DNA of 64,000 nucleotides from Candidatus Latescibacterota bacterium (GCA_965206595.1 OZ242214.1:6528001-6592000); one strand, 5' to 3'; counted from the stretch's first letter, positions 28,990 to 43,101 are shown. Numbers and translations: made by a program. Notes: generated by a model not told the origin, from the sequence alone.

Positions 28990-29739
28990 ATGCTGCAGCT
29001 GACCAACGTCTCGAAGTCGTTCGGCCACACCGCGGCCCTGCGCCCCACCGACCTGACCATCCAGGCCGGGGTCACCACGGTGCTGATCGGCCCGAGCGGC
29101 TGCGGCAAGTCGACGCTGCTGCGCCTGATGATCTGCCTGATCCGCCCGGACACCGGGACCGTCTCCTTCGACGGCAGGGATTTCGACGACAGCGACGTGC
29201 TCGAGCTGCGCCGCCACATGGGGTACGTGATTCAGGACGGGGGTCTGTTTCCGCACCTGAGCGCGCGCGACAACGCCGCCCTGCTGGCGCGCCACCTCGG
29301 CTGGGACGAGGGCCGCGTCGAGGCCCGCCTGCGCGAGCTGGCGGAGCTGACCCGTTTCCCCTTCGACGGGCTCGAGCGCTTTCCCGCGCAGCTTTCGGGG
29401 GGGCAGAAGCAGCGCGTCAGCCTGATGCGGGCGCTGATGCTCGACCCCGAGGTGCTGCTCCTCGACGAACCGCTGGGCGCCCTCGACCCGATCGTGCGCT
29501 CGGAGCTGCAGGGGGACCTGCGCGACATCTTCAGGGCCCTGCGCAAAACCGTCGTCGCCGTCACCCACGACATCGGCGAGGCCGGCTTCCTCGGCGACCG
29601 CCTCGTGCTCCTGCGGGAAGGGGAAATCGTGCAGCAGGGGACGTTGCAGGAGCTGGTCGACTCGCCGGCGGATCCGTTCGTGTCCCGCTTCATCAACGCG
29701 CAGCGGACGCCGCTGCAGGTCCTCGGAGCGGATTCGTGA
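28990..29739 (+). CDS. ABC transporter ATP-binding protein, OpuBA/EgtV-like
   Basis: GPSGCGKST, GYVIQDGGLFPH, LSGGQKQRV, LLLDEPLGALDP and VTHD motifs. Confidence 0.9.
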   Translation: MLQLTNVSKSFGHTAALRPTDLTIQAGVTTVLIGPSGCGKSTLLRLMICLIRPDTGTVSFDGRDFDDSDVLELRRHMGYVIQDGGLFPHLSARDNAALLARHLGWDEGRVEARLRELAELTRFPFDGLERFPAQLSGGQKQRVSLMRALMLDPEVLLLDEPLGALDPIVRSELQGDLRDIFRALRKTVVAVTHDIGEAGFLGDRLVLLREGEIVQQGTLQELVDSPADPFVSRFINAQRTPLQVLGADS

Positions 29740-31253
29740 ACCCGCTCCGCACCGCCGCCGCCGCCGCGGCAGCGGCCCTTCTTCTTACAGGGACGGCCGC
29801 GGCTGAGGCCGGAACCGACCCTCCGCAGATCCGCGTCGGCTCCAAGACGTTCACGGAGAACGTCATTCTCGGCGAGATGGTGGCCCAGCTCGCGGCGGCC
29901 TCCGGGGCCGCGGTCACTCATCAGCGCGAGCTGGGAGGCACCCGGGTCCTGTGGGAGGCCCTGCTGCGCGGCGACCTCGACGCCTACCCCGAGTACACGG
30001 GAACGATCAGCGAGGAGATCCTGGCGGGCAGCGACGTCCACGGCCTGGAGGCGATACGCGCCGCCCTCGAAGAGCACGGCCTGTCGATGAGCCGCCCGAT
30101 AGGCTTCAACAACACCTACGCGATGGGGATGCCGGAGGCGCTCGCCGACAGCCTGGGGATGCGGACCATATCCGACCTCAAGAAGCAGCCCGGCCTCCGC
30201 TTCGGCTTCAGCAACGAGTTCCTCGACCGCGGCGACGGCTGGCCCAGCCTGCGCGACCGCTACGGCCTGCCGCATCGCGACGTCCAGGGGCTGCAGCACG
30301 ACCTCGCCTATCGCGGGATCGAGTCCGGGGACATCGACGTCATCGACATGTATTCGACCGATGCCGAGATCGAGTTCTACAACTTGAGGACCCTTGCAGA
30401 CGACCTCGGCCACTTCCCGGCCTACAACGCCGTCATCCTCTACCGCTCCGACCTCGCCGGCAGGGCCCCGGAGGCGGTGCGCTCTATCCTCCGGCTCGAG
30501 GGGCTCATCGACGACAGGGTTATGTCCGGGCTCAACGGCCGCGCCAAGCTCGAACTCGTGCCCGGGGAAAGGGTCGCCGCGGATTACCTCGCCGCGGCCC
30601 TGAAGGTCGAAAGCGACATCGTCGAAATGACCCTGTGGGACCGCCTGCTGCGGCGCACGCGGGAACACCTCACCCTGACCGGGATCTCGCTGGCCGCGGC
30701 CATCGCCGTCTCCCTGCCCCTGGGGATCCTCGCGGCCAAGTGGGCGCGGCTCGGGCAGGCCATCCTCGCGCTGACCGGGGTCATACAGACGCTGCCGGCC
30801 CTCGCCCTGCTGGTGTTCATGATCCAGCCGTTCGGCATCGGGGAACCGCCGGCCATCGCCGCCCTCTTCCTCTACAGCCTGCTGCCGATCGTGCGCAACA
30901 CCTGCACCGGCCTCCGCGACATACCGGGCCCCCTGCGGGAGTCGGCCGCGGCCCTCGGCCTGCCTCCGTTGGTGCGGCTGCGGCGCATAGAGCTGCCCCT
31001 CGCTTCGCGCGCGATCCTGGCCGGCATCAAGACTTCGGCGGTCATCAACGTCGGCTTCGCCACCATCGGCGCCTTCATTGGCGCCGGCGGCTACGGGCAG
31101 CCGATCATGACCGGCCTGCGGCTCGCCGACAACCGGCTGATCATGGAAGGGGCCATCCCAGCGGCACTCCTCGCCCTGGCGGTGCAGGGGCTGTTCGAGC
31201 TTTCGGAGCGGGTGCTGGTGCCCAAGGGCCTGCGCCTCGAGCCGGTGGAATAG
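29736..31253 (+). CDS. Fused substrate-binding/permease subunit of a betaine-type ABC importer (EgtU/OpuAC-like)
   Basis: Signal peptide, then SBP motifs GSKTFTEN, YPEYTGT, GFNNTYA, EFLDRGDG, YSTD and FPAY, then TMD motifs QTLPALA, YSLLPIVRNT, IELPLA and GAGGYG. Confidence 0.88.
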   Translation: MNPLRTAAAAAAAALLLTGTAAAEAGTDPPQIRVGSKTFTENVILGEMVAQLAAASGAAVTHQRELGGTRVLWEALLRGDLDAYPEYTGTISEEILAGSDVHGLEAIRAALEEHGLSMSRPIGFNNTYAMGMPEALADSLGMRTISDLKKQPGLRFGFSNEFLDRGDGWPSLRDRYGLPHRDVQGLQHDLAYRGIESGDIDVIDMYSTDAEIEFYNLRTLADDLGHFPAYNAVILYRSDLAGRAPEAVRSILRLEGLIDDRVMSGLNGRAKLELVPGERVAADYLAAALKVESDIVEMTLWDRLLRRTREHLTLTGISLAAAIAVSLPLGILAAKWARLGQAILALTGVIQTLPALALLVFMIQPFGIGEPPAIAALFLYSLLPIVRNTCTGLRDIPGPLRESAAALGLPPLVRLRRIELPLASRAILAGIKTSAVINVGFATIGAFIGAGGYGQPIMTGLRLADNRLIMEGAIPAALLALAVQGLFELSERVLVPKGLRLEPVE

Positions 31254-31340
31254 AACCGGAGCGATCACCCCGTGTCACGTCTCTGGAACAGATTGGCGGA
31301 AGCCGGCCGCCGGGGCGCCCGCCTCGAGCCGGTGGAATAG
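31233..31340 (+). repeat. Exact 21-bp direct repeat of the permease 3' end (31233-31253 and 31320-31340)
   Basis: cgcctcgagccggtggaatag occurs twice, 87 nt apart. Confidence 0.85.
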
Positions 31341-31353
31341 CCCGGGAGCCTGA

Positions 31354-32361
31354 ACGATCGCACGCTTCGCTGTCCAGCCCGCCTCCCCCGCCGCGGTCAC
31401 CCTCCTGGCCGCGGACGGCCGCGTCCATTCCGACGATTTCGCCGGCGACGTCAGGGCCGGCCTGACCGCCTCCCCGAAACGGCTGTCCTGCCGCTACTTC
31501 TACGACGAAGCCGGCTCGAAGCTGTTCGAGGAGATCTGCGGCCTCCCCGAGTACTACCTGACCCGGGCCGAGCACGCCATCCTCGAGGAGCGCGCCGCCG
31601 CGATCGCCGCCCTGTTCGCCGGCTGCGTCACCCTCGTCGAGCTCGGCAGCGGCTCCGCGCTCAAGACGCGGCTGCTGATCGAGGCCCTGATCGAGCGCCA
31701 GGGCAACCTGCGGTTCATTCCCGTCGACATCTCGCGGTCAGCCCTGGAGGAAAGCTCGGCCGCCCTGGCCGGGGAGTTCGAGGACCTCGAGATCCTCGCC
31801 GTCGCCGGGGAGTACGGGGACGGCCTCGAGTACCTCCGGCAGCACCCCGGGGGCCGGCGGCTGATCCTGTGGCTGGGGTCGAACGTCGGCAACTTCGAGC
31901 GGGCCGAGGCCGCTGACTTCATCGCCGGAGTGCGCGCCGCCATGTCTGCGGACGACCGCTTTCTCGCCGGGATCGACCTGCGCAAGGAACGGGCCGTGCT
32001 CGAAGCGGCTTACGACGACAGCGAGGGTGTGACGGCCCGCTTCAACAAAAACATCCTGGGCCGGATCAACCGCGATCTCGGGGGGCGCTTTGCCCTCGAG
32101 CGCTTCCGCCACCGCGCCGTCTGGGACGAACGGCTCGGGCGCGTCGAGATGCACATCGAGAGCGCCGGCGCCCAGACGGTCCCCATAGAGGAGCTGGGGC
32201 TCGAGATCCGGTTCGCCGACGGCGAGACCATCCACACCGAGAACTCCTACAAATATTCCACCGCCGAGATCGAAGCCCTGGCCGCGGCCGCGGGGATGAC
32301 CCTCGAGCGCCAGTGGTTCGACCCGGGGCGCCGCTTCAGCGTCAACCTCTTTCGCCCCTGA
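31354..32361 (+). CDS. egtD: L-histidine N-alpha-trimethyltransferase EgtD (start codon non-canonical or damaged)
   Basis: The frame is open from 31354 and reads YFYDEAGSKLFEEICGLPEYYLTRAE, VELGSGS, PVDIS, LGSNVGNF, AYDD, FNKN and IHTENSYKY. No ATG/GTG/TTG before 31930. Candidate starts are ATC 31357 (after GGGAG) or CTG 31405. Confidence 0.88.
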   Translation, partial: TIARFAVQPASPAAVTLLAADGRVHSDDFAGDVRAGLTASPKRLSCRYFYDEAGSKLFEEICGLPEYYLTRAEHAILEERAAAIAALFAGCVTLVELGSGSALKTRLLIEALIERQGNLRFIPVDISRSALEESSAALAGEFEDLEILAVAGEYGDGLEYLRQHPGGRRLILWLGSNVGNFERAEAADFIAGVRAAMSADDRFLAGIDLRKERAVLEAAYDDSEGVTARFNKNILGRINRDLGGRFALERFRHRAVWDERLGRVEMHIESAGAQTVPIEELGLEIRFADGETIHTENSYKYSTAEIEALAAAAGMTLERQWFDPGRRFSVNLFRP

Positions 32362-32547
32362 CCAACCCGATGGGTCTCGTCCTCGTCACCTACAACCGCG
32401 GCCACTACCCGATGGACGACATCTCCCTGTACGAGCCCATGCCGCCGGTATGAAGCCTTCCCGCAGGCATGGCGCTCATCCCGGCCTCGACAATTCGATC
32501 CGCACTGCACGCGCTCCATTGCGAGCGACCCATCCAGGAGCTGCGCC

Positions 32548-34986
32548 ATGATCGTTTCCATCGCCTGTCTGCTGACCCTCGTATTCCTCACCTCGCCCGG
32601 CCGGGGGCAGCAGGAATTCCCCCCGCAACAAACCCTTTCCCCGTTCTTCTTCGTCGAAACCGACGATCCCGACCTCGACCAGCTTCCCCTGAAGTCGGTT
32701 GCCGCCACGGTGGCGATCGCCGGGGTCATCGCCGACGTCAGGATCCGCCAGGAGTACGCCAACGAAGGGGAACGGCCCCTCGAGGCCACCTACATATTCC
32801 CCGCCTCCACCCAGGCCGCGGTGTACGGAATGGAGATGACCATCGGCGACCGCATCATAACCGCCGAGATACGAGAACGGGAGCAGGCGCGCCAGGAGTA
32901 CGAAGAGGCGGTCGAAGAGGGCCGCACCGCCTCCCTCCTCGAGCAGCAGCGGCCCAACGTCTTCCAGATGACCGTGGGCAACATCCTGCCGGGAGACACC
33001 ATCTTCGTCGAGCTGAGCTACACCGAAACCCTCGTGCCGACCGCAGGGGAGTACGAGTTCGTGTATCCGACCGTGGTCGGACCGCGGTACTCGGAGACCC
33101 CCCTGGCGGAGGCCGATTCCAGGGATCTGTTCGTGGCGACGCCCTACACCCATGAAGGGGAGCCGGCCACCTACGGTTTCGACATCGACGTCGAGTTGAC
33201 CACCGGGGTGCCGATCCAGGCCCTGTACTCGATCTCCCACGAGGTCGACGTCTCCTATCCGGAGGCCGGCCGGGCGCGGGTCGGGCTGCTCGAGTCGGAC
33301 CAGTCCGGCGGCAACCGGGACTACATCCTGCGCTACAGCTTGGCGGGCGACCGGATCGAAGCCGGCCTGCTGCTCTACGAGGGGAAGGGCGCAAGCTTCC
33401 TGGACGAAAACTTCTTCCTGTTCATGGGCCAGCCGCCGGAGCGCGTCTCCGAGGAGGAGATACCCCCGCGGGAGTACATCTTCGTCGTCGACGTTTCCGG
33501 GTCGATGAGCGGCTATCCGCTCAATGTGTCGAAGGCGCTGCTGAGGGACCTGATCGAGCCGCTTCGTCCGACCGACCACTTCAACGTGCTGCTGTTCGCC
33601 GGGGTTTCCAACCTGATGTCGGAACAGTCTCTTCCGGCATCGACCGAGAACATAGAGCTGGCCCTCGAGTTCATCGATGCCAGCGAGGGAGGGGGCGGCA
33701 CCCGGCTCGGGACGGCCCTCGAGCGCGCCATGCAGCTGCCGAGAACGAGCGAGAAGACCTCCCGCTCGATCGTGATCGCCACCGACGGGAAAATCTCCGC
33801 GGAGGCGGCAGTATTCGACCTGATCAGGGACAATCTCGGGGAAGCGAACGTCTTCGCCTTCGGCATCGGCACGAGCGTCAACCGCTTCCTGATCGAGGGA
33901 ATCGCGCGCGTCGGATTCGGCGAGCCGTTCGTCGTCACCCGGGAGGATGAGGCCGAAGAGACGGCCGCCCGGTTCCGCGAGTACATCGGCACGCCGGTCC
34001 TCTCGGGAGCGACCTTCGCGGCCGAGGGTTTCGACATCTACGAGGTGGAGCCGGCCGTCATCCCGGACCTGCTGGCGCAGCGGCCCGTTCTGGTCTACGG
34101 GAAATGGCAGGGGGAACGGCAGGGCACCCTGTCGCTGCGGGGTCATACGGGGCAGGGGGAGTACGCCTTCGAAATCGACGTCTCGCAAGAGACCCCGGAC
34201 GAGTCCAACGCGGCGCTCCGCTATCTCTGGGCCCGCCGGCTCATCGCCACCCTGGGGGACTACGCGGGGCTGGTGAACGGTGACGAGTTTTTGCGGGTGC
34301 AAAGCCACATCATGGAGCTGGGTCTGACCTACAATCTTCTCACCGCCTATACCTCTTTCGTCGCGGTGGACCGGGTCGTGCGCACCGACGGCACCGAGCT
34401 GTCGAGGGTGGTACAGCCGCTGGTCCTGCCCCAGGGGGTCTCGGACGAAGCGGTTGGCGATGGAAGTTCCCCCTCGGCAGTCGAAGAACAGCTCGCGAGC
34501 GCCTCCTGGTTGGGCAGGCAGTTCTACTTGAGCGGCGGCGTCTGGATCGACTCCGAGTACACCTTCGGGGACCCGGTCGTCGAGTACGACACGGTGCGGT
34601 CTCCGCCGGCCGAGCTTAAGCCGTTTGCCGCCCTTCAGCAGGAAATGATCGTGGTGGCGGAAGAACGAGCCTATCGGCTGCGGGCGCCGGCGCTGCCAGT
34701 GGCTGCCGTACTGTATCAGAACGTGCCCAATCCGTTCAATGCCGGGACCACCATCCGCTTCGACGTCCTCGGCAGTCATGGGGGCCGGCCGCTGCATCTG
34801 GAGATCTTCGATCTGTCAGGGCGGAGGGTGAAGCTGCTGACCTGGGAGGGCCTCGGCCCCGGCGGGCACGCCTTCACCTGGGACGGCAGGGACGAACAGG
34901 GGCGCGAGGCGGCGAGCGGCGTCTACCTCTACCGCCTTTCCAGCGCCGGCTTCATGTCGATGCGGAAGATGCTGCTGCTGAGATAG
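32548..34986 (+). CDS. Secreted VIT + VWA domain protein with FlgD-Ig-like C-terminal domain
   Basis: Signal peptide, VIT motifs (LEATYIFP, ASLLEQQRPNVF), VWA MIDAS DVSGSM, GGGT and TDG, and a tail NVPNPFN...WDGRDEQGREAASGVYLYRL. Confidence 0.88.
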   Translation: MIVSIACLLTLVFLTSPGRGQQEFPPQQTLSPFFFVETDDPDLDQLPLKSVAATVAIAGVIADVRIRQEYANEGERPLEATYIFPASTQAAVYGMEMTIGDRIITAEIREREQARQEYEEAVEEGRTASLLEQQRPNVFQMTVGNILPGDTIFVELSYTETLVPTAGEYEFVYPTVVGPRYSETPLAEADSRDLFVATPYTHEGEPATYGFDIDVELTTGVPIQALYSISHEVDVSYPEAGRARVGLLESDQSGGNRDYILRYSLAGDRIEAGLLLYEGKGASFLDENFFLFMGQPPERVSEEEIPPREYIFVVDVSGSMSGYPLNVSKALLRDLIEPLRPTDHFNVLLFAGVSNLMSEQSLPASTENIELALEFIDASEGGGGTRLGTALERAMQLPRTSEKTSRSIVIATDGKISAEAAVFDLIRDNLGEANVFAFGIGTSVNRFLIEGIARVGFGEPFVVTREDEAEETAARFREYIGTPVLSGATFAAEGFDIYEVEPAVIPDLLAQRPVLVYGKWQGERQGTLSLRGHTGQGEYAFEIDVSQETPDESNAALRYLWARRLIATLGDYAGLVNGDEFLRVQSHIMELGLTYNLLTAYTSFVAVDRVVRTDGTELSRVVQPLVLPQGVSDEAVGDGSSPSAVEEQLASASWLGRQFYLSGGVWIDSEYTFGDPVVEYDTVRSPPAELKPFAALQQEMIVVAEERAYRLRAPALPVAAVLYQNVPNPFNAGTTIRFDVLGSHGGRPLHLEIFDLSGRRVKLLTWEGLGPGGHAFTWDGRDEQGREAASGVYLYRLSSAGFMSMRKMLLLR

Positions 34987-35184: not shown

Positions 35185-36684
35185 CTACCGCTGGTAGGTG
35201 AACACCGCCCCGGTGCTCACCCGCAGCCGCCTCCTGATCCGCTGCGAAATCGTGTCGATGCCGATGTTCAGCACCGCGGTTACCAGGATCAGGAACACCG
35301 CCTTGTCGAGCTTGTCGTCGGCGATGGCGCTGTCGATGAAGAACCCGAGGGTCGAGATCCCGAGAATCCCGAGGATGGCCGACTCCCGCATCATCACCTC
35401 CCAGCGGTAGAACAGGAAGGCCATGAACTGCCCGTACACCCGCGGCAGGACCTCGAACAGGTAGCGGTTCGCCCGCTTCCTGGCCGCGTCGATCTCGAGC
35501 TTCACGAGGTTGGCGTTCTGGCCGGTGAGGTGCGACAGGATGGCGCCGTTGTGCAGGGTGATGGCGAGGATCGCAGGCAGCATCGACGGGCCCCATAGCT
35601 GCAGGAAGACGTAGGCGAGGATGTACTCCGGGGTCGTCCTCATGACGATGAGGAAGTAGTTGGCCAGCCCCCGCCAAACCCTGGTCCTGACGAAATGGCG
35701 GCAGATGCCGCCGAAGAAGACGAGGGTGAACAGCCCGGTCCCCACCAGCACCACCTGCGTCAGCAGCACCGTGTTCCAGACCCCGGGCAGGGCTTCCTGC
35801 GACAGGATTTCCAGGGCCCAGTCCCAGACCCTGCCCGCGGGGAACGAGATCTCGCCACTGCCGTCGAGGAACCCCTCGCGCCGCATCGGCCAGGGCAGGA
35901 TCTCCCAGGTCGCGAAGCGGGCGATGTTCTGCCAGGAGAGGTGGATCTCGGTCGAGATCAGGGCGAACGAGGCCGCAACGCAGGCGATCGCGACCTTCGG
36001 CTTCAGCCAGTAGCGCAGCGAGGCGATAAGCAGGTAGAAGGCGTAGAGGAGGGCCGGGGCCTCGCTGTAGAGCCCTTCGCGGAAGGCGGTCTCGAGGTGG
36101 AACCCCAAAGTCGGCAGGCCGATGAACCCGAGGATGGCGCTCGAGCGCAGGGCGCACTCGAACCGGTACGAGGTGTAGTGCCTGACGTCGGCGTAGATGA
36201 CCGGCAGCACCCCGTAGAAGAACCTGCTCAGCCTCGGGGTGTGCAGCGGCAGGCCCTTCAGCGGCGTCTGGTCCGCCTCCTGCATGATCTCGGCGAACAC
36301 CTTGGCGAAGATGCCGGCGTAGGGAATGCCGATGGCCAGCACCCCGCACACCGGGTTGAGGCCGACGACCGGCAGGAACAGGAAGGCCCAGAAGATCTCG
36401 TGGATCGCCCGGATGAAGGCGCAGAACAGCCTCACCGCGGTGAACTGGAAGAAGAGGGCCAGGACGCTGCCGAGGGCGAGGCCGAGGGAAATGCCGCAGA
36501 AGGCGAAGGTGACGGTGTTGAGCAGGGCCTCGCGGAAGGTGTAGAGAACCGGCAGGTCGGGGGTGAGGAAACCCAGGCCGATCCGTTGCAGCTCCCGCCA
36601 GGGATCGAGGGTGGTGACCTCCAGGTCGGCCAGGACCAGGCAGGCCAGGGCGACGCCGACAAACTGCAGACTCGTTCGCAGCAT
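35185..36684 (-). CDS. PhnE/PtxC-like ABC permease with duplicated TMD (putative selenate transporter)
   Basis: Two halves: RAIHEIFWA...YRFECALRSSAILG and RTTPEYILA...YRWEVMMRESAILG. Confidence 0.85.
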   Translation of the reverse strand: MLRTSLQFVGVALACLVLADLEVTTLDPWRELQRIGLGFLTPDLPVLYTFREALLNTVTFAFCGISLGLALGSVLALFFQFTAVRLFCAFIRAIHEIFWAFLFLPVVGLNPVCGVLAIGIPYAGIFAKVFAEIMQEADQTPLKGLPLHTPRLSRFFYGVLPVIYADVRHYTSYRFECALRSSAILGFIGLPTLGFHLETAFREGLYSEAPALLYAFYLLIASLRYWLKPKVAIACVAASFALISTEIHLSWQNIARFATWEILPWPMRREGFLDGSGEISFPAGRVWDWALEILSQEALPGVWNTVLLTQVVLVGTGLFTLVFFGGICRHFVRTRVWRGLANYFLIVMRTTPEYILAYVFLQLWGPSMLPAILAITLHNGAILSHLTGQNANLVKLEIDAARKRANRYLFEVLPRVYGQFMAFLFYRWEVMMRESAILGILGISTLGFFIDSAIADDKLDKAVFLILVTAVLNIGIDTISQRIRRRLRVSTGAVFTYQR

Positions 36685-36696: not shown

Positions 36697-37380
36697 CTAC
36701 GAAAGTTCCGGCGGCAGAGCTGCGCTTGCCTCGCTGCGGTAGAGGTCGGCGAGGATCCCCTCGTCGACGTCGGCGGCCGCCAGGTCGAAGGCGAGGCCGC
36801 CTTCCCGCAGTCCGACGATGCGCGGGAAGTGGGCGAGCGCCAGGTTGACGTCGTGCATGGCGAGGACGACGGTGGCGGAGCTGTCGCGGATCAGTTGCAG
36901 CACGGTGCCGGCCTGCAGCGGATCGATGGCCGAAACCGGCTCGTCGCCGAGGATGACGTCGCAGCCGCGGTACACGGCGCGGCCGACTGCGACCCGCTGC
37001 TGCTGCCCTCCCGAGAGGTTGCTGACCCGCTCGAACATCTTCTCCTCCATGCCGAGGGCGGCGAAAATCGGCCGGATCTCGTCGATTTCGCCGCGCCCCG
37101 GGCGGATGAGGTTCAGCAGGTTCCTGGTGGTGGGGCGCTGGTCGAGGCGGCCGATGTAGACGTTGTGAAACGCCGACAGCTGCGGCACCAGGGCGTAGTC
37201 CTGGTGGATGAAGGCGCACTGCTGCTGGCGCAGCTCGTACAGCTTCTTCAGCAGCGTCGTCTTGCCGACGCCGCTGGGGCCGATGACGACCACCTTCTCC
37301 CCGGCGCCGATGCGCAGGGAGACGCCGGCCAGGACCGGGGTGTCCTCGTAGGCAACGCTCAGGTCTTCGAGATCGTACAC
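36697..37380 (-). CDS. PhnC-like ABC ATP-binding protein
   Basis: GPSGVGKTT, LVPQLSAFHNVYIGRL, LSGGQQQRVA and DEPVSAIDP motifs. Confidence 0.88.
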   Translation of the reverse strand: MYDLEDLSVAYEDTPVLAGVSLRIGAGEKVVVIGPSGVGKTTLLKKLYELRQQQCAFIHQDYALVPQLSAFHNVYIGRLDQRPTTRNLLNLIRPGRGEIDEIRPIFAALGMEEKMFERVSNLSGGQQQRVAVGRAVYRGCDVILGDEPVSAIDPLQAGTVLQLIRDSSATVVLAMHDVNLALAHFPRIVGLREGGLAFDLAAADVDEGILADLYRSEASAALPPELS

Positions 37381-37412
37381 GGGTCAGGGCGCCGCCGCCG
37401 GGATGGCCCGGC

Positions 37413-38273
37413 TCATTGCTCGAAGATGCCGATGGCGGTCCCGGTCTCGAGTATGGGGCCGTACATCGAGTTGTCCGCGGCGATGAAGCGGGTGCGCGGG
37501 AACTGGTCGAGGATCTCGCGGTCGTCGAGCGCCAGCAGGGCGTCCTTTACCTTGGCGATGAAGCCCTCGCCGTACTTCTCCTCGACGTCGCCGCGGATCG
37601 ACCAGTTGTAGTCCGGGTAGGCCGGGGTGCGCCAGATGACGCTCACCCTGGTCGAGTCGACGTTGCCGGCCGCCTTCTCCTTGTCGAAGACCTTGAAATT
37701 CAGGGCCCCGACCTCGTAGCTGCCGGACTGCACCAGGGCGAGGGTCTTGGAGTGGTCGCCGCTGAAGCCGACGCGCTTGAAGACCTCGTCGGGCGCCTTC
37801 CCGAAATGCTGCCTGAGGTAGAACTCCGGCATCAGGCGGCCCGACGTCGACCCCTTGGAACCGAAGGTGAAGGTGCGGCCCGCGATCGCCGCGGGGAACT
37901 CCTCTCCCGGCTCGATGCCGGTGCTGGCGTTGGCGATGAAGTAGGTGACGAACTGCAGATCCTCCTCACCCTGGGCGATCGCCTGCGACCCGGGCACGGC
38001 GCGCCGCGCCTTGACGCCGGACAGGCCCCCGAACCAGGCGAGCTGCACCTCGTCGTTCTTGAAGGCGTTCACCGAGGCCGCGTACGACTTGACCGGTATG
38101 TACTCGACGTCGATGCCCAGCTTGCCCGACAGGTATCCGGCGACGCGGTCGAAGCGCTCCTTGAGGCGGGCAGTGTTCTGATCTGGAATCGCGGTGAAGC
38201 GGAACATGTCCGCGGCCGACGCCTGGCTCGCCAGGACCATGGCCAGGACAAAGCAGATCCTACGCAGTTTCAA
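37413..38273 (-). CDS. Putative selenate ABC transporter substrate-binding protein (PhnD-like)
   Basis: TTG start at 38273 after AGGAGG, with a signal peptide. FTAIPDQ, LAWFGGLSGV, FTFGSKGSTSGRLMP, GFSGDH and YPDYNW motifs. Lies directly downstream of selD. Confidence 0.82.
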   Translation of the reverse strand: MKLRRICFVLAMVLASQASAADMFRFTAIPDQNTARLKERFDRVAGYLSGKLGIDVEYIPVKSYAASVNAFKNDEVQLAWFGGLSGVKARRAVPGSQAIAQGEEDLQFVTYFIANASTGIEPGEEFPAAIAGRTFTFGSKGSTSGRLMPEFYLRQHFGKAPDEVFKRVGFSGDHSKTLALVQSGSYEVGALNFKVFDKEKAAGNVDSTRVSVIWRTPAYPDYNWSIRGDVEEKYGEGFIAKVKDALLALDDREILDQFPRTRFIAADNSMYGPILETGTAIGIFEQ

Positions 38274-38352
38274 TCTCGTCCTCCTTTTAAACGCGGATGA
38301 TGTGGATCGGATATGGATTTTGTATGGGGAAACGGTCCGGACCAACGGTCCG

Positions 38353-39408
38353 CTACTGGAACTTCAGGTAATGCGGCGGCGACAGGCCGACGGCGCGGCC
38401 GACGATGCAGGCCGCCTCCACGCCGGCCTGCTGCAGGGCTTCGACCGCGGCCGCGGCCTGGGCCCCGGGAACCGCGGCGAACAGGCCGCCGCTGGTCTGC
38501 GGGTCGACCAGGATCTCGCCCTGCCTGTTCGGCAGCTCCTTCTCGTACAGGGCGGCTTCCCCGACCTGCGCCCGGTTCCCGGCGTTGGCCCCGGTGGTGA
38601 CGCCGCGCTCGTACATCTCCAGCGCTTCCGGCAGTACCGGCACCGAGTCGACTTCGATTTCGATGGTAACCCCGGAGCCTTTGGCCATCTCGAGGGCGTG
38701 CCCGGCGAGCCCGAAGCCGGTGATGTCGGTCGCCGCGTGCACGTCGAACCGGGCCAGGGTCTCGGCCGCGGCCCTGTTGAGATCGGTCAGCACTGCCAGG
38801 GTCCGCTCCAGGGCTTCCCGGGAAAGCAGGCCTTTCAGGTTGGCGTTGAAGATCACGCCGCTGCCGATCGGCTTGGTCAGGATCAGCGCGTCCCCGGGAC
38901 GGGCCCCGGCGTTGCGCCAGTACCTGTCAGGGTGCACGACCCCGGTGACCGAGAGCCCGAACTTCGGCTCGTCGTCGTTCGTGGTGTGGCCCCCGGCCAG
39001 CACCGCCCCCGCCTCGGTGATCTTGCTCAGAGCCCCTTCGACGATGCCGTGCAGCACCTCGGGGCCGAGGTCCTCCTCGGGAAACCCGATCAGGTTGAGG
39101 CAGGCCACCGGCCGCCCCCCCATGGCGTAGACGTCGCTCAGGGAGTTGGCGGCGCCGATCTGGCCGAAGGTGAACGGGTCGTCGACCGGCGGCGTGATGA
39201 AGTCCGCGGTGACGACGATGGCGGTGTCGTCGCCGAGGCGGTAGACGCCGGCGTCGTCGCTGGTCTCGAATCCGACCAGCAGGTTCGGGTCCGACTTGCG
39301 CGGCAGGCCGGCCAACAGTTTCTCGAGCCCGACCGGGCTCGCCTTGGCCGCTCACCCGCAGGTCTTGGCGAGACTCGTCAGGGTCTTCTCTTTTGATTGC
39401 AGCGCCAT
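38353..39408 (-). CDS. selD: Selenide, water dikinase (selenophosphate synthetase, SelD/SenC), selenocysteine-containing
   Basis: ATG at 39408 gives MALQSKEKTLTSLAKTCG-UGA(39354-39352)-AAKASP..., in frame with DDAGV, DFITP, ANSLSDVYAMGG, GGHT, TDITGFGL and DPQTSGGL. 351 aa with read-through. Confidence 0.93.
39324..39341 (-). promoter_or_regulatory. Bacterial SECIS-like hairpin of selD
   Basis: mRNA UGA-GCGGCCAAGG-CGAGCCC-GGUC-GGGCUCG: a 7-bp stem with a G-initiated loop 17 nt after the UGA. Confidence 0.75.
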
Positions 39409-39574
39409 GGGAATCCGTCGATTCGTCGATGTGGGCTCTATTCGGTGCGGGCGACAACTTATTCAGGTCCCCGCCCCGAGGCAACGCGGTTGCCCCGAGC
39501 CGGGGACTGACTACACTCAGGGAGCATCGGGAATCGCCTGACCCCGCAACAGGAACAGCAACAGGGAAGGAAAC

Positions 39575-40882
39575 ATGTCCGTCCGACAACTGGCGTCCCC
39601 CGAAGAGCTCGCCGATTGGGTAAGAGACGCCAGGGAGCGCACCTTCGAGCTCGTCGCCGATCTCAGCGACGGGCAGCTGATGGGCCCGGAGCTCTCCACC
39701 GTCAACCCCGGCCTCTGGGAGATGGGGCACCACGCCTGGTTTCAGTCGCTGTGGGCGCTCCGGCACGCCTGCGGCGAGCGCCCCGTCCGCGAGGACGAGG
39801 ACGCCCTCTACGACTCGATGGAAATCGCCCACGACACGCGCTGGGGTCTGCCGCTGCCCTCGCGCGAAGAGACCCTCGAGTACATGCGCGAGGTCCGCGA
39901 CCGCCTGTTGCGGCACCTCGCAGGCGACCCTTCGGAAGAACTGCTGTACCACGCCCTCTACAGCACCCTGCACGAGGACATGCACACCGAGGCCTTCACG
40001 TACACCCGCCAGACCCACGGCTACCCGCGGCCAGGGCTGACCGGCTTCGACGGGACCGGGACCCCGGGGGGCGGCCCCCTGCCGGGGGACGTCGAGATCC
40101 CTGGGGGCTCCTTCATGCTCGGGTCGACGCCGGAGGAGCCGTTCGTGTTCGACAACGAGAAGTGGGTGTTCGCGGTGGAGCTCGAGGCCTTCCGCATCGC
40201 CCGCGCCTGCGTCACCCAGGCGGAGTACGCCGCCTTCGTCGACGACGGCGGCTACGGAAGGCGGGAGCACTGGTGCGGCGAAGGCTGGGAGTGGCTGCAG
40301 CAAAGCAACGCCGCCGGCCACCGCTACTTTCGCCGGGCAGGCCGCGGATGGGAGCGCCGGCACTTCGATTCCTGGGTAGCGCTCGAGCCGGACAAGGCCG
40401 TCATCCACGTCAACTGGTTCGAAGCGGACGCGTACTGCCGCTGGGCCGGCAGGCGCCTGCCGGCCGAAGCGGAGTGGGAGGCCGCGGCCACTACAGAGCC
40501 CGGACCGCGCGGTCTCGGTAACGGCGCGGCCAAGCGCCGCTATCCCTGGGGCGACCGCCCGCCGGCGCCCGACCTGGCCAACCTAGACTGGCGCGGCATG
40601 GGGACCGTCGACGTCGGCGCCTACCCAGCCGGCGACAGCGCCCACGGCTGCCGCCAGATGATCGGCAACGTCTGGGAATGGACGAGCTCCGATTTCCAGC
40701 CCTTCCCCGGATTCACTCCGGATCCGTACAAGGATTACTCCGAGCCCTGGTTCGGCACCCGCAAGGTGATGCGCGGCGGCGGCTGGGCGACGCGCTCGCG
40801 GCTGATCCGCAGCAACTACCGCAACTTCCAGACCCCGGACCGCGGCGACGTCCTCACCGGGTTCCGCACGTGCGCCCTGTGA
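39575..40882 (+). CDS. senA: Selenoneine synthase SenA (EgtB-like DinB_2 + FGE-fold)
   Basis: WEMGHHAWFQ and HEDMHTE metal-binding His residues, LYDS, FVFDNEK, HVNWFEA, RLPAEAEWE, GNVWEW, YKDYSEPWF and GFRTC. Adjacent to senB and selD. Confidence 0.88.
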   Translation: MSVRQLASPEELADWVRDARERTFELVADLSDGQLMGPELSTVNPGLWEMGHHAWFQSLWALRHACGERPVREDEDALYDSMEIAHDTRWGLPLPSREETLEYMREVRDRLLRHLAGDPSEELLYHALYSTLHEDMHTEAFTYTRQTHGYPRPGLTGFDGTGTPGGGPLPGDVEIPGGSFMLGSTPEEPFVFDNEKWVFAVELEAFRIARACVTQAEYAAFVDDGGYGRREHWCGEGWEWLQQSNAAGHRYFRRAGRGWERRHFDSWVALEPDKAVIHVNWFEADAYCRWAGRRLPAEAEWEAAATTEPGPRGLGNGAAKRRYPWGDRPPAPDLANLDWRGMGTVDVGAYPAGDSAHGCRQMIGNVWEWTSSDFQPFPGFTPDPYKDYSEPWFGTRKVMRGGGWATRSRLIRSNYRNFQTPDRGDVLTGFRTCAL

Positions 40883-41042
40883 CCGCGGCCCTGCTGCCCG
40901 GGGGAGGCGCAACCGGGAGTCCGGGCAGCCAGAGCAGCGCGGAGCGGCTACCTGGGTTCCCCGGATTCGCCACTCCCGGGAAGAGCGGCGGCCGCAAGCG
41001 GCGGGTGGCCCCGGGATTCCCCGGGCGCCGGGAGCGAACCCC

Positions 41043-42008
41043 ATGAGGATCCTCATCGTCACCCCGGCCCCCCCCGGCTCGCGCAAGGGGAACCGGGTCA
41101 CGGCGATGCGCTGGCGGCGTATCCTGCGGGAGCTCGGACATACCGTCGCCGTGGCCGAGGAGTTCGGGCGCCAGCACTGCGACCTGCTGGTGGGGCTGCA
41201 CGCGCGGCGTTCGGCCGCGTCCCTGGCGCGCTTCGCCGCCGCCCACCCGGAACGGCCCATCGTCCTGGCGCTGACCGGCACCGACCTCTACCGCGACATC
41301 CAAACCGACCCCGAGGCGCGGAGATCCCTCGAGCTGGCCGACCGCTGCGTCGTGCTGCAGGAGCTGGGAGCCGCGGCCCTGCCCGAGCGGTTCCGGGGCC
41401 GGGCCCGCGTCATCTACCAGTCGATCGTTCCTCCGAGCCGCGAACCCTCCTCGCGGGCCCGCACCTTCAACCTCTCCGTGGTCGGCCACCTGCGCCCGGT
41501 CAAGGACCCGTTCCGCGCCGCCGAGGCCAGCCGCCTGCTGCCGCCCGGCTCGCGCATCCGGGTGCGCCATGCCGGCGCCGCGCTCAGCGACGACATGGCG
41601 GTCCGGGCGCTGCGGGAGCAGCGGGAAAACCGGCGCTACCGCTGGCTCGGGGAGCTGCCGCGCTGGCGCGCGATGCGCGAGATCGCCCGCAGCCGCGCCC
41701 TCGTGCTGACCTCGGAAATGGAGGGGGGCGCCCACGTCGTCTGCGAGGCCCTCGCCTGCGGGGTGCCGGTGCTTTCCACCCGCATCGACGGATCGGTGGG
41801 CATCCTCGGGGAGGAGTACCCCGGGTACTTCCCGGTCGGAGACACCCGCGCCCTCGCCGACCTGATGCTGCGCTGCGAAGAGGACGACTTGTTCCTGCGC
41901 CGGCTGCGCCGGCACTGCTCCGAACGGGCGGCGCTGGTCGATCCGGAGCGGGAGCGGCGCTGCTGGGAGGAGCTGCTCGCCGAGATGGCGGTTCCGCCAT
42001 CCCGCTGA
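41043..42008 (+). CDS. senB: Selenosugar synthase SenB (GT4-like)
   Basis: IVTPAPPGSRKGNRVTAMRW, LHARRS, LTGTDLY, GHLRPVKDP, SEMEGGAHV and GILGEEYPGYFPVGD motifs. Confidence 0.92.
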   Translation: MRILIVTPAPPGSRKGNRVTAMRWRRILRELGHTVAVAEEFGRQHCDLLVGLHARRSAASLARFAAAHPERPIVLALTGTDLYRDIQTDPEARRSLELADRCVVLQELGAAALPERFRGRARVIYQSIVPPSREPSSRARTFNLSVVGHLRPVKDPFRAAEASRLLPPGSRIRVRHAGAALSDDMAVRALREQRENRRYRWLGELPRWRAMREIARSRALVLTSEMEGGAHVVCEALACGVPVLSTRIDGSVGILGEEYPGYFPVGDTRALADLMLRCEEDDLFLRRLRRHCSERAALVDPERERRCWEELLAEMAVPPSR

Positions 42009-42045
42009 CCGCTCCCATATAACCCCAACCTACTGGATTGACAGC

Positions 42046-43101
42046 ATGCTGATCGTCGATTCCCACCTCGATATCGCCTACAACGCCCTGGAGTGGAACC
42101 GCGACCTGCTGCAGCCGATCGCGGCGATACGGGAGTCCGAAGCCGGGATGGCCGGCAAGGGGCGCGGCGCCAACGTCGTCTGCTTCGACGAGCTGCGCCG
42201 CGGCCAGATCGGCCTGTTCGTGGCCACCTGCCACAGCCGCCTGGCCTCGGTTGGAAAACGCTTCCCCGGGGTGCGCACCCAGGACATCGCCTACGCCAAG
42301 TGCCGCGGCGAGGTCGCCTACTACCGACTGATGGAGGCGAAGGGGGTTCTCAGGCAGATCCGCGACGCGGACGGTCTCGACGCCCACTTGCGGGAATGGG
42401 AACGGGACAGCGCCTCGTCGCCGCTCGGTTTCGTGCTCTCCATGGAGGGGGCCGACGGCATCGTCGGCGAGGAGCAGGTGGCGGAGTGGTGGGACGAGGG
42501 CCTGCGCATCGTCAGCCTCTGCCACTACGGCATCAGCGCCTACTCGCACGGCACCCAGGCCCCTGGCGGCCTGACCCCGAGGGGGGCGCCTATGCTGAGG
42601 GCCCTGCAGGAAGCCGGCATGATCCTCGACGTCAGCCACCTCGCCGAAAAGGCGTTCTGGGAGGCGCTCGAGGTTTTCGGAGGGCGCGTCATCGCCACCC
42701 ACAACTGCTGCCGCGCCCTGTGCGACCACGACCGCCAGCTCGACGACCGGCAGATATCAGCGCTGGTCGAGCGCGGCGGCGTCATCGGCACCGCCTTCGA
42801 CGACTGGATGCTGTCCCCCTGCTGGGACAGGGAGGTGGTCGACAACACCGGCATCACCCTGGACACGGTGGTCGACCACATCGACCACGTCTGCCAGGTG
42901 GCGGGCAATGCCGGCCACGCCGCCATCGGCACCGACCTCGACGGCGGCTACGGCAAGGAGCAGAGCCCGGCCGACATCGACACCATAGCCGATCTGCAGC
43001 GCATCCCCGCCCTGCTCGAAAAGCGGGGTTACAGCGCCGGCGACACCGCCGCAATCATGCACGGCAACTGGATCCGCCTGCTGAGGGAGGCCTGGGGTTA
43101 G
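42046..43101 (+). CDS. Membrane dipeptidase family (peptidase M19)
   Basis: DSHLD, SMEGAD, DVSHL, ATH, GGVIG, HIDH, IGTDLDG and GNWIR motifs. Confidence 0.9.
   Translation: MLIVDSHLDIAYNALEWNRDLLQPIAAIRESEAGMAGKGRGANVVCFDELRRGQIGLFVATCHSRLASVGKRFPGVRTQDIAYAKCRGEVAYYRLMEAKGVLRQIRDADGLDAHLREWERDSASSPLGFVLSMEGADGIVGEEQVAEWWDEGLRIVSLCHYGISAYSHGTQAPGGLTPRGAPMLRALQEAGMILDVSHLAEKAFWEALEVFGGRVIATHNCCRALCDHDRQLDDRQISALVERGGVIGTAFDDWMLSPCWDREVVDNTGITLDTVVDHIDHVCQVAGNAGHAAIGTDLDGGYGKEQSPADIDTIADLQRIPALLEKRGYSAGDTAAIMHGNWIRLLREAWG

What the first reader, a model, noticed from the sequence alone, without database searches (positions are those of the whole stretch)
28990..43101. Self-contained selenium hub: Se uptake, selenophosphate, selenosugar, selenoneine and a betaine-type importer
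Seen: within about 14 kb lie egtD, senA, senB, selD, a PhnCDE-like ABC transporter downstream of selD and an EgtUV/Opu-like ABC importer upstream of egtD. selD plus its ABC genes are transcribed divergently from senA-senB across a 166-bp gap. Established: selenoneine is made from hercynine (EgtD) by SenC (a SelD), SenB and SenA, a pathway described mainly from Proteobacteria and Actinobacteria as a compact senABC cluster. Inference: this is an extended, rearranged version with two transport systems and a Sec-dependent SenC, in a lineage probably not known to make selenoneine.
Basis: partly seen in the sequence, partly recalled or inferred. Interest (0 to 1): 0.8.

Follow-up and report, generated by a model that had tools for sequence, protein, structure and literature searches.

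The report
Selenoneine gene cluster with two importers
An uncultured Latescibacterota bacterium carries the already known gene set for making the selenium antioxidant selenoneine, here joined to a probable selenium uptake pump and to a betaine-type uptake pump whose substrate is still unknown.

Summary
All named genes lie at the stated coordinates and pass curated family cut-offs: SenA, SenB, SelD with an in-frame TGA (selenocysteine), EgtD, a TIGR04553 "putative selenate" ABC system and an OpuAC-permease/ATPase pair.

The 39575 protein is SenA, not EgtB or OvsA. It has His at the EgtB Arg87 position and the Tyr/Asn/Phe hercynine motif.

The core is the selenoneine pathway published in 2022. 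That paper already notes a nearby putative selenate transporter and egtD in some clusters.

The genome is a 7.05-Mb Latescibacterota assembly. SenB passes its cut-off in 30 of 168 genomes of the phylum.

selD is the genome's only selD. selA, selB and tRNA-Sec lie far away, so "self-contained hub" is overstated.

Neither transporter linkage is unique to this genome. The betaine-type importer travels with egtD in several phyla but lacks the signature residues of the ergothioneine importer EgtU. Earlier agents of this scan saw the same pump beside egt/sen genes in other genomes.

By-product: eight other Latescibacterota SenB genes carry a conserved in-frame TGA followed by a hairpin, probably selenocysteine.

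The parts
28990..29739 (+). ABC ATPase of the betaine-type importer. It is 249 aa with an ABC_tran domain only, and overlaps the next gene by 4 nt.
   Evidence: The best NCBIfam match is proV TIGR01186 at 221 bits, below cut-off, covering only positions 3-234 of the 363-position model. A terminator-like hairpin lies just upstream at 28907-28933.
29736..31253 (+). Fused substrate-binding domain (OpuAC, N-terminal) and permease (C-terminal) of the betaine-type importer.
   Evidence: PF04069 at 180 bits and PF00528 at 75 bits; the best solved relative is the S. pneumoniae EgtU binding domain (152 bits), ahead of A. fulgidus ProX (127 bits).
31357..32361 (+). EgtD, the histidine N-alpha-methyltransferase that makes hercynine. 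The start is uncertain: ATC at 31357 or CTG at 31405.
   Evidence: TIGR03438 at 359 bits against a cut-off of 290.9; no canonical start codon. A conserved ATC/ATT sits at the head of the conserved N-terminus in six relatives.
35185..36684 (-). PhnE-like double permease of the TIGR04553-type ABC system.
   Evidence: TIGR01097 at 201 bits in two stretches, below the cut-off of 216.7. It is co-linear with selD in 6 of 80 SenB loci and 8 of 14.
36697..37380 (-). PhnC-like ABC ATPase.
37413..38345 (-). Periplasmic binding protein of family TIGR04553 ('putative selenate ABC transporter substrate-binding protein'). It starts 7 nt after the selD stop.
   Evidence: 365.7 bits against a cut-off of 250. 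PF12974.
38353..39408 (-). SelD (= SenC), selenophosphate synthetase, with TGA at codon 19 (39352-39354) read as selenocysteine. It is the only selD in the genome.
   Evidence: The TGA is conserved in 11 of 11 and 7 of 7 neighbouring SelD genes. tRNA-Sec, selA and selB are present.
39324..39342 (-). Hairpin GAGCCCGG-UCGG-GCUC about 10 nt after the UGA, a SECIS-like element.
   Evidence: The fold is no better than shuffles (z = -0.89), so this is position and shape only.
39409..39574 (.). 166-bp divergent control region between selD and senA. It holds a perfect palindrome GGCAAC-GCG-GTTGCC at 39480-39494.
   Evidence: the palindrome is conserved in L003 and L004 but not in L007; 1 match against 0.01 expected. 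No sigma-70-like site was found.
39575..40882 (+). SenA, selenoneine synthase (non-heme iron selenoxide synthase).
   Evidence: NF041186 at 488.9 bits against a cut-off of 420. His86 at the EgtB Arg87 position, Tyr388/Asn417/Phe418 forming the hercynine motif, iron ligands His52/133/137, and Gln419 where other SenA have Phe or Tyr.
41043..42008 (+). SenB, selenosugar synthase (Se-glycosyltransferase).
   Evidence: TIGR04348 at 406.8 bits against a cut-off of 300; the alignment to V. paradoxus SenB keeps N20, T23, H58, R61, R155, K158 and the EGGAHV motif.
42046..43101 (+). M19-family dipeptidase, 37 nt after senB. It is probably co-transcribed. Its role in the pathway is unknown, and it is linked only in this genus.
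   Evidence: PF01244 at 170 bits. Present in 2 of 80 loci and 0 of 14.

Best explanation
The locus is a selenoneine biosynthetic (sen) cluster in an uncultured Latescibacterota bacterium.

Proposed pathway:
- SelD, a selenoprotein and the cell's only selenophosphate synthetase, activates selenide to selenophosphate.
- SenB joins selenophosphate to a UDP-sugar to give a 1-seleno-sugar.
- EgtD trimethylates histidine to hercynine.
- SenA couples the selenosugar to C2 of hercynine. After elimination of the sugar this gives selenoneine.

These four steps follow from membership in characterised families. They are inferred for this organism, not shown.

The selD operon continues into a PhnCDE-type ABC importer of family TIGR04553, which most likely brings in a selenium oxyanion. 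This is inferred from operon structure and recurrence only.

A second operon runs ATPase, binding-domain/permease fusion, egtD. It couples hercynine synthesis to a betaine-type ABC importer. I think this importer most likely takes up a histidine betaine (hercynine, selenoneine or ergothioneine) for salvage. That is inferred from repeated adjacency to egtD in several phyla, and the substrate is unproven.

selD also has to serve selenoprotein synthesis, because selA, selB and tRNA-Sec lie elsewhere in the genome.
For: Family scores over curated cut-offs for SenA, SenB, SelD, EgtD and TIGR04553.

SenA-type active-site residues. His sits at the EgtB Arg87 position. Tyr/Asn/Phe sit where OvsA has Met/Gln/Ala (alignments, paper section 5).

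SenB catalytic residues are kept.

No second EgtB-like gene passes the cut-off, so EgtD has no sulfur partner of that family in the genome.

Sec machinery is present: tRNA-Sec, selA and selB. There is one selD.

Operon spacing: 4-nt overlap between the Opu ATPase and permease genes, 7 nt between selD and the binding-protein gene, 37 nt between senB and the M19 gene.

TIGR04553-type ABC genes lie beside sen genes in 6 of 80 SenB loci from many phyla. They do so in 8 of 14 Latescibacterota loci.

Opu-type permease, forward survey. It lies beside egtD/sen genes in 5 of 80 SenB loci (Nitrospinota, Bryobacteraceae, Tectomicrobia and one unclassified). It also does so in 2 of 14 loci of the phylum and in relatives G001-G003.

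Opu-type permease, reverse survey. Of 12 metagenome homologues at 60% identity or more:
- 6 have egtD adjacent;
- 1 has an EgtB-like gene adjacent;
- 4 end at the match;
- 1 has 1.9 kb of flank without egtD.

Contigs from two other studies reproduce 29097-32970 with 5 differences and 37752-40675 with 3 differences.
Against: No chemistry or expression data exist for this organism.

SenA here, and in L004 and L007, has Gln at the EgtB Asp416 position. All 48 other SenB-linked SenA examined have Phe or Tyr there. The selenium-donor pocket is therefore not identical to that of characterised SenA.

The importer's pocket is ProX-like. It has Phe where EgtU has an invariant Gly, and G244F costs about 100-fold in ergothioneine affinity. 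It also has Tyr/Phe in place of Phe293/Tyr337, and F293Y costs about 10-fold.

The same 16-residue pocket pattern is found in family members that are not near egtD. Of 30 metagenome homologues below 60% identity, only 2 have egtD nearby.

The neighbours of unlinked members give no hint of substrate.

The backbone of the quick tree is unresolved, so the number of independent linkages is uncertain: at least 3 changes are forced, and 25 of 500 shuffles reach as few changes as observed.

TIGR04553 is a 'hypothetical equivalog'. Its substrate has never been measured, as far as I could find.
Confidence: 0.8

Rival explanations
1. The betaine-type ABC importer is an ordinary compatible-solute (glycine betaine, proline betaine or choline) uptake system. 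Its position beside egtD would reflect shared regulation or hitch-hiking, not a role in histidine-betaine metabolism.
For: The pocket has the four-tyrosine cage and the Phe at EgtU position 244 that the EgtU paper describes for glycine-betaine-binding A. fulgidus ProX. The same pocket occurs in homologues with unrelated neighbours. Only 2 of 30 metagenome homologues below 60% identity are near egtD.
Against: Adjacency to egtD recurs in several phyla and in different gene orders. The best solved relative is EgtU, not ProX. The ATPase has no domain beyond ABC_tran and matches only the first 234 of 363 positions of the proV model. From my own knowledge, not tested here, that missing part is the osmosensing CBS region.
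Confidence: 0.35
2. The 39575 protein is a sulfur enzyme (EgtB) and the locus makes ergothioneine only.
For: It belongs to the same superfamily. EgtB TIGR03440 scores 306 bits, and M. thermoresistibile EgtB is a good structural relative at 253 bits.
Against: The EgtB score is below its cut-off of 360, while the SenA score is above its cut-off. Arg87 of EgtB is His here. The gene sits beside SenB and SelD. No egtA, egtC or egtE was looked for.
Confidence: 0.03
3. The 39575 protein is an OvsA and the locus makes ovoselenol (5-selenohistidine route).
For: OvsA is the highest-scoring solved relative, at 310.7 bits for the wild type, above V. paradoxus SenA at 247 bits.
Against: The engineered OvsA-YNF variant, which behaves as a SenA, scores higher still at 320.5 bits. 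The window protein has Tyr388/Asn417/Phe418 where OvsA has Met401/Gln430/Ala431. EgtD is encoded in the locus, whereas most ovs organisms lack egtD. I did not search for an OvsM methyltransferase.
Confidence: 0.03
4. The PhnCDE-like system downstream of selD imports phosphite or phosphonate and has nothing to do with selenium.
For: It is of the PhnC/D/E family by Pfam and NCBIfam. No substrate has been measured for TIGR04553. One search found no experimental paper (search listing only).
Against: The binding protein scores 365.7 bits on TIGR04553 and only 124.7 on PhnD TIGR03431, whose cut-off is 261. It starts 7 nt after selD. The same trio follows or flanks sen genes in 6 of 80 and 8 of 14 loci. 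The founding preprint notes the same association.
Confidence: 0.12

Closest known systems
senABC selenoneine cluster of Variovorax paradoxus and Amycolatopsis palatopharyngis (Kayrouz and Seyedsayamdost 2022, bioRxiv 10.1101/2022.04.13.486033; passages read)
   Same: It has the same three enzymes plus EgtD. SenA and SenB pass the NCBIfam equivalog cut-offs. The active-site residues of SenB and the hercynine motif of SenA are kept. A putative selenate transporter and egtD near the cluster are already described for a subset of clusters.
   Different: selD is divergent from senA-senB and is a selenoprotein that also serves Sec synthesis. SenA carries about 50 residues that V. paradoxus SenA lacks and has Gln419 instead of Phe/Tyr. 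A betaine-type importer is attached to egtD. The host phylum is Latescibacterota.
EgtUV ergothioneine ABC importer of Streptococcus pneumoniae and relatives (bioRxiv 10.1101/2022.05.02.490363; sections 7 and 12 and passages read)
   Same: It is a two-gene ABC importer with a binding domain fused to the permease. EgtU is the best solved relative of the binding domain at 152 bits. The cage residues Asn339, Tyr341, Tyr419 and Tyr443 are kept, as are the carboxylate ligands Lys242, Thr296 and Arg379 and Glu375.
   Different: Gly244 is Phe, Phe293 is Tyr, Tyr337 is Phe and Pro401 is His. The binding domain is N-terminal here, whereas it spans residues 233-506 (C-terminal) in EgtU. EgtU homologues are reported nearly exclusively from Firmicutes that do not make ergothioneine. 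This importer sits in producers.
ovs (ovoselenol) cluster, OvsA/OvsM plus senB/senC (PMC11030361; sections 3-5 read)
   Same: OvsA is the closest solved sequence relative of the window's SenA. The selenosugar cassette senB/selD is shared.
   Different: The substrate motif is SenA-type (Tyr/Asn/Phe), not OvsA-type (Met/Gln/Ala). egtD is present. OvsA genes are reported almost exclusively from aquatic Gammaproteobacteria.
NCBIfam TIGR04553 / PhnCDE phosphonate-type ABC importers
   Same: It has the binding protein, ATPase and duplicated PhnE-type permease, and the binding protein scores over the family cut-off.
   Different: Nothing distinguishes it from other TIGR04553 members. The family's substrate is a prediction.

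Membership tests
SenA (selenoneine synthase, NF041186) | Score over the curated equivalog cut-off and above the EgtB model. | tested here: met
   SenA scores 488.9 bits against 420. EgtB scores 306.4 bits against 360.
SenA (selenoneine synthase, NF041186) | EgtB Arg87 replaced by His (stated for all SenA in the preprint). | tested here: met
   His86 aligns with Arg87 of M. thermoresistibile EgtB.
SenA (selenoneine synthase, NF041186) | EgtB Asp416 replaced by Phe or Tyr. | tested here: not met
   The residue is Gln419 in the window, L004 and L007. It is Phe or Tyr in 48 of 48 other SenB-linked SenA. This is a lineage-specific departure in the donor pocket. The other features still place the protein in the family.
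SenA (selenoneine synthase, NF041186) | Hercynine-binding motif Tyr/Asn/Phe (V. paradoxus Tyr366/Asn395/Phe396), as opposed to OvsA Met401/Gln430/Ala431. | tested here: met
   Tyr388, Asn417 and Phe418.
SenA (selenoneine synthase, NF041186) | Makes selenoneine from hercynine and a selenosugar. | not testable with these tools
   This needs an enzyme assay.
SenB (selenosugar synthase, TIGR04348) | Score over the cut-off, with catalytic residues N20, T23, H58, R61, R155, K158, E231 and the EGGAHV motif. | tested here: met
   406.8 bits against 300. All listed residues are identical in the alignment to chain 8jjq. The residue list comes from PMC10891094 (passages read).
SelD / SenC (TIGR00476) | Score over the cut-off, with Sec or Cys in the N-terminal glycine-rich loop. 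| tested here: met
   374 bits against 125. TGA sits at codon 19 in KTCG-U-AAK. That this is the catalytic Cys17 position of E. coli SelD is recalled, not tested.
EgtD (TIGR03438) | Score over the equivalog cut-off. | tested here: met
   359 bits against 290.9.
EgtU (ergothioneine-specific binding domain) | Invariant Gly244, which makes room for the water chain around the thione. | tested here: not met
   The residue is Phe39 here, and Phe, Tyr or Ser in every family member examined. The feature is taken from paper section 7. G244F binds about 100-fold more weakly.
EgtU (ergothioneine-specific binding domain) | Phe293 with Tyr337 (the 'F-Y switch' against ProX). | tested here: not met
   Tyr87 and Phe124, which is the ProX arrangement.
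EgtU (ergothioneine-specific binding domain) | Quaternary-amine cage and carboxylate ligands (Asn339, Tyr341, Tyr419, Tyr443, Lys242, Thr296, Arg379). | tested here: met
   All are kept. These residues are shared with other betaine-binding proteins, so they do not discriminate.
TIGR04553 putative selenate ABC binding protein | Score over the cut-off and a position beside selD. | tested here: met
   365.7 bits against 250. The gene starts 7 nt after selD.
TIGR04553 putative selenate ABC binding protein | Binds or transports a selenium oxyanion. | not testable with these tools
   No experimental paper was found (search listing only).
OvsA / ovs cluster | Met/Gln/Ala histidine motif. | tested here: not met
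   Tyr/Asn/Phe instead.
OvsA / ovs cluster | OvsM N-pi-methyltransferase co-occurring. | not tested
   I ran no search for OvsM.

The most novel reading that the evidence does not exclude
The ATPase plus binding-domain/permease pair is the founding example of a histidine-betaine importer unrelated in specificity to EgtU. Producers of selenoneine and ergothioneine in at least four phyla would use it to take back hercynine or the finished thio/seleno-betaine. This locus would then both make and recapture a selenium antioxidant that is shared in a community. Contigs from RNA libraries of two studies labelled as sponge metagenomes match parts of the cluster at 90-97% identity.
Probability: 0.4. 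Interest if true: 0.6.

Novelty: new member of a known kind. Interest (0 to 1): 0.4.

Why it matters
Selenoneine is the only selenium analogue of ergothioneine found in food webs, and its microbial sources are still poorly mapped.

This locus shows the pathway in Latescibacterota. It is present in 30 of 168 species genomes of the phylum, all within one class. Here the only selenophosphate synthetase of the cell sits in the cluster and needs selenium to be made.

The practical value lies in the accessory genes:
- a candidate selenium oxyanion importer;
- a candidate histidine-betaine importer that is not EgtU.

Both could be tested with simple binding assays. Either would fill a gap: no bacterial selenite/selenate ABC importer of this family, and no hercynine or selenoneine importer, has been characterised in the papers I could search.

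The by-product, a probable selenocysteine four residues after the sugar-contacting Gln131 of SenB in sister lineages, would be a new selenoprotein family. It would also be a handle on how SenB handles selenium.

Tried and rejected
- Rfam scan of 28000-44000 at E up to 1: two matches, both below their gathering scores and irrelevant.
- Sigma-70 promoter scan: 0 sites. The only informative terminator-like site is at 28907-28933.
- selD SECIS: a hairpin is there, but its energy is not better than shuffles, z = -0.89. I rest the Sec reading on codon conservation and the Sec machinery instead.
- Neighbours of 12 transporter homologues, most of them (11) with no egtD nearby. 54 ORFs were scanned against Pfam. 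They gave mixed, unrelated functions, with no ergothioneine or betaine catabolic genes recognised.
- Tree of 40 transporter sequences: the careful search did not finish in 300 s, so only the quick tree was used, and its backbone is unresolved.
- RNA-library contigs (runs X19 and X20, two studies). They match parts of the permease gene, the permease/egtD junction, the vWA gene, the TIGR04553 ATPase and binding-protein genes, senA and senB, mostly at 90-95% identity. They therefore come from relatives. The tool warns that DNA can be present in such libraries. I do not count this as evidence of expression.
- One search failed on a size limit (10001 bases) and was repeated as with 10000.
- M19 dipeptidase and VIT-vWA protein as pathway members: rejected as conserved parts. 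They are linked in 2 of 80 and 0 of 14 loci.
- I did not run structure prediction, fold search, complex prediction or the large protein-database searches. The family calls were already decisive, and none of these tools can name a ligand.
They include Supplementary Fig. 1 of the sen paper, which draws example clusters. I cannot exclude that a betaine-type transporter is drawn there.

Full report
**What is there**

Six-frame ORF lists and translations and scans against NCBIfam and Pfam give the following map.

- On the + strand lies an ABC ATPase (28990-29739). It overlaps by 4 nt a fusion of an OpuAC-type substrate-binding domain and a permease (29736-31253).
- About 100 nt further on is EgtD, ending at 32361 (TIGR03438, 359 bits against a cut-off of 290.9).
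- A VIT-vWA-FlgD_ig protein follows (32548-34986).
- On the - strand, read from 39408 downwards, lie four genes:
  - SelD (38353-39408; TIGR00476, 374 bits);
  - a TIGR04553 binding protein (37413-38345; 365.7 bits against 250);
  - a PhnC-like ATPase (36697-37380);
  - a duplicated PhnE-like permease (35185-36684).
- The gaps between these four genes are 7, 32 and 12 nt.
- Across a 166-bp gap (39409-39574), on the + strand, lie three more genes:
  - SenA (39575-40882; NF041186, 488.9 bits against 420);
  - SenB (41043-42008; TIGR04348, 406.8 bits against 300);
  - an M19 dipeptidase, 37 nt later (42046-43101).

**SenA versus its look-alikes**

The EgtB model scores 306 bits, below its cut-off of 360.

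The best solved relative is unexpectedly OvsA, the ovoselenol enzyme, at 310.7 bits. M. thermoresistibile EgtB scores 253 bits and V. paradoxus SenA 247 bits.

The ovoselenol paper (PMC11030361, sections 3-5 read) gives the discriminating residues. OvsA has Met401/Gln430/Ala431. SenA has Tyr/Asn/Phe, and the triple mutant OvsA-YNF behaves as a SenA. The window protein has Tyr388/Asn417/Phe418. It also scores higher against the YNF variant (320.5 bits) than against wild-type OvsA.

The sen preprint states that EgtB Arg87 and Asp416 are His and Phe/Tyr in all SenA. Here Arg87 is His86, but the Asp416 position is Gln419.

I aligned 54 sequences. Gln occurs only in the window and its Latescibacterota relatives L004 and L007. 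All 48 other SenB-linked SenA have Phe or Tyr. I read this as a lineage-specific change in the donor pocket of a true SenA.

SenB keeps every catalytic residue named in PMC10891094.

**Selenium activation**

selD has TGA at codon 19 in KTCG-U-AAK. The genome is one contig of 7,053,161 bases, with the window at 6,528,001-6,592,000.

- It holds a single selD over the cut-off.
- tRNA-Sec lies at 5.156 Mb.
- selA lies at 0.758 Mb.
- selB lies at 3.587 Mb.
- No selU was found (completeness 92.87%).

SenC here is therefore the housekeeping SelD, and the Sec machinery is scattered. The locus is self-contained for selenoneine only.

The stop codon at the Sec position is found in 11 of 11 SelD genes near SenB in other phyla. 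It is found in 7 of 7 in the phylum. A hairpin follows the UGA but is not statistically distinguishable from shuffles.

No second EgtB-like gene passes its cut-off, so EgtD has no sulfur partner of that family. I did not test the anaerobic EanB route.

**Whose genome**

The closest SenB genes, at 97%, 90% and 62% identity, are in MAGs titled Candidatus Latescibacterota. Earlier notes on the same genome name the same phylum.

TIGR04348 passes its cut-off in 30 of 168 species genomes of the phylum. All 30 are among the 132 genomes of G000's class. None is among the 36 genomes outside it.

No paper in the library holds both 'selenoneine' and 'Latescibacter'.

**Are the transporter linkages unique?**

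No.

Among the 80 best SenB loci from GTDB species genomes (of 147 found; counts by script):

| Gene near SenB | Loci of 80 |
|---|---|
| SenA | 53 |
| SelD | 11 |
| EgtD | 15 |
| TIGR04553 trio | 6 |
| Opu-type permease | 5 |
| M19 dipeptidase | 2 |
| VIT-vWA protein | 2 |

The six loci with the TIGR04553 trio are three Latescibacterota, a SAR324, a Cytophagia and a Caldithrix. The five with the Opu-type permease are two Nitrospinota, a Bryobacteraceae, a Tectomicrobia and one unclassified. The M19 and VIT-vWA genes occur only in the window's genus. Many of these loci are cut short by contig ends, so all counts are minima.

Among 14 Latescibacterota loci with about 9.5 kb on each side:

| Gene near SenB | Loci of 14 |
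|---|---|
| SenA | 14 |
| SelD | 7 |
| TIGR04553 trio | 8 |
| EgtD | 6 |
| Opu-type pair | 2 |
| Both transport systems together | 0 |

Both systems lie together only in the window and in G001 and G002, which I take to be the same-genus genomes G106 and G107. In G003 the ATPase-permease-egtD unit lies on another contig than the sen genes.

The founding preprint already mentions a putative selenate transporter near many sen clusters and egtD in a small subset. I could not see its supplementary figure.

**The betaine-type importer**

I ran a reverse survey with the permease fusion as query against metagenome contigs. It gave 42 loci.

Of the 12 loci at 60% identity or more:
- 6 have egtD next to the permease, and two of these also have senA and senB;
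- 1 has an EgtB-like gene next to it;
- 4 end within 83 bases of the match;
- 1 has 1.9 kb of flank without egtD.

Of the 30 loci below 60% identity, 2 have egtD, both with an EgtB-like gene. The rest sit among unrelated genes.

The gene order varies: the transporter lies upstream of egtD, downstream of senB, or divergent from the cluster. A quick tree places the linked members in several clades on an unresolved backbone.

The best solved relative of the binding domain is S. pneumoniae EgtU at 152 bits, ahead of ProX at 127 bits. The EgtU paper's signature residues are not met (sections 7 and 12 and passages read):
- Gly244 is Phe. G244F costs about 100-fold in affinity.
- Phe293 is Tyr. F293Y costs about 10-fold.
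- Tyr337 is Phe.
- Pro401 is His.

The amine cage and the carboxylate ligands are kept. The same 16-position pattern holds across the whole family, whether or not a member is linked to egtD.

The importer certainly binds a carboxylate-bearing quaternary amine. Whether that is a histidine betaine rests on gene neighbourhood alone.

Three earlier reports of this scan reached the same reading on other genomes. They are leads, not independent support, but my counts agree with them.

**Independent DNA**

Contigs from two other studies reproduce 29097-32970 with 5 differences and 37752-40675 with 3 differences. The permease/egtD junction and the divergent selD-senA region are therefore not assembly artefacts of one data set.

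**Things seen on the way**

1. *egtD start.* egtD has no ATG, GTG or TTG between the in-frame TGA at 31351 and codon 31930. In the window, L083, L084, L085, L098 and L099 the conserved N-terminus begins at an ATC or ATT codon. Only L084 has a distant upstream GTG. A non-canonical start, or reinitiation after the permease gene, is likely.
2. *Duplicated permease end.* The last 21 nt of the permease gene (31233-31253) are repeated exactly at 31320-31340.
3. *Probable Sec-SenB in sister lineages.* One search flagged SenB matches with one internal TGA in 9 of the 30 genomes. I fetched all nine.
   - Eight of them (L138-L142, L152-L154) have the TGA at the same column.
   - That column is residue 130 of the window's SenB, where the window has Pro. 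It is Ala135 of V. paradoxus SenB, four residues after the sugar-contacting Gln131.
   - The five proteins compared are 60-83% identical to each other.
   - A 7-bp hairpin starts 17 nt after the first base of the UGA. Compensatory changes occur at 4 of its 7 pairs.
   - In 107 SenB sequences examined, no other lineage has a stop at this column. One search examined 96 of them, and Cys occurs at the column once.
   - The five papers that hold 'SenB' together with 'selenoprotein', 'selenocysteine' and 'selenosugar' show nothing of this in the listing and abstracts I saw. I read passages of only two of them.
   - I think this is a real selenocysteine form of SenB.
   - The ninth gene (L143) has a TGA elsewhere and may be an error or a broken gene.

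**Verdict**

This is a well-supported new member of the known sen cluster kind, in a new phylum. It carries one accessory importer that is already noted in print. It carries a second importer that is unreported in the papers I could search but has been seen repeatedly by this scan.

Noticed in passing
L138:9934-9936 (+), L139:9875-9877 (+), L140:9887-9889 (+), L141:10096-10098 (-), L142:10052-10054 (-), L152:1603-1605 (+), L153:2020-2022 (-), L154:2015-2017 (-): Eight SenB genes of other Latescibacterota have an in-frame TGA at one and the same column: YQS-x-x-U-P, equal to V. paradoxus SenB Ala135 and window SenB Pro130. A hairpin with compensatory changes follows. This is probably a selenocysteine form of the selenosugar synthase. 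It was not seen in SenB from other phyla (107 sequences examined), in the listing and abstracts of the 5 papers, or in earlier scan notes.
   Followed up: partly
window 31351-31930: egtD has no ATG, GTG or TTG start in frame after the TGA at 31351. A conserved ATC/ATT codon heads the conserved N-terminus in the window and in L083, L084, L085, L098 and L099. This suggests a non-canonical start or reinitiation after the permease gene.
   Followed up: partly
window 31233-31253 and 31320-31340: There is an exact 21-nt direct repeat. The 3' end of the permease gene, including its stop codon, is duplicated 87 nt downstream, between the permease gene and egtD.
   Followed up: no
window 40829-40831 (SenA codon 419): SenA has Gln where 48 of 48 other SenB-linked SenA have Phe or Tyr (the EgtB Asp416 position). 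The change is shared with L004 and L007, so it is a Latescibacterota trait.
   Followed up: partly
window 32548-34986 (+): An 812-aa VIT + vWA + FlgD_ig protein lies between egtD and the selenium ABC operon. It resembles the 'marine proteobacterial sortase target' family at 385.8 bits, below the cut-off of 551.65. It is linked to sen genes only in this genus.
   Followed up: no
window 42046-43101 (+): An M19 dipeptidase lies 37 nt after senB. It is linked only in the window's genus: 2 of 80 and 0 of 14 loci. Whether it acts on a selenoneine-related compound is open.
   Followed up: partly
window 39480-39494: A perfect palindrome GGCAAC-GCG-GTTGCC lies in the divergent selD/senA region. It is conserved in L003 and L004 but not in L007, and is a possible operator. 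It gives 1 match against 0.01 expected.
   Followed up: partly
window 43350-45252 (+): An AAA_21/AAA_15 ATPase (399 aa) overlaps a 239-aa protein of no Pfam family. The stretch has lower G+C, 0.57 to 0.63 against about 0.67 around it. It may be an inserted defence-type or mobile module.
   Followed up: no
L005, L009, L014, L016, L018-L020, L026-L028 and 17 more loci: 27 of 80 SenB loci, many from Planctomycetota, show no SenA in the DNA fetched (up to 10 kb on each side; some contigs are short). SenB may often be encoded apart from SenA or may serve another selenosugar use.
   Followed up: no
L143 (G109), SenB at query position 165: This SenB has a single TGA at a different, non-conserved place (..ATW*LPG..). 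It may be a sequencing error, a broken gene or another read-through.
   Followed up: no
window 26991-27491 and 28433-28888 (+): A DCC1-like thiol-disulfide oxidoreductase and a Bor-like lipoprotein lie just upstream of the importer operon. No link to the cluster was tested.
   Followed up: no
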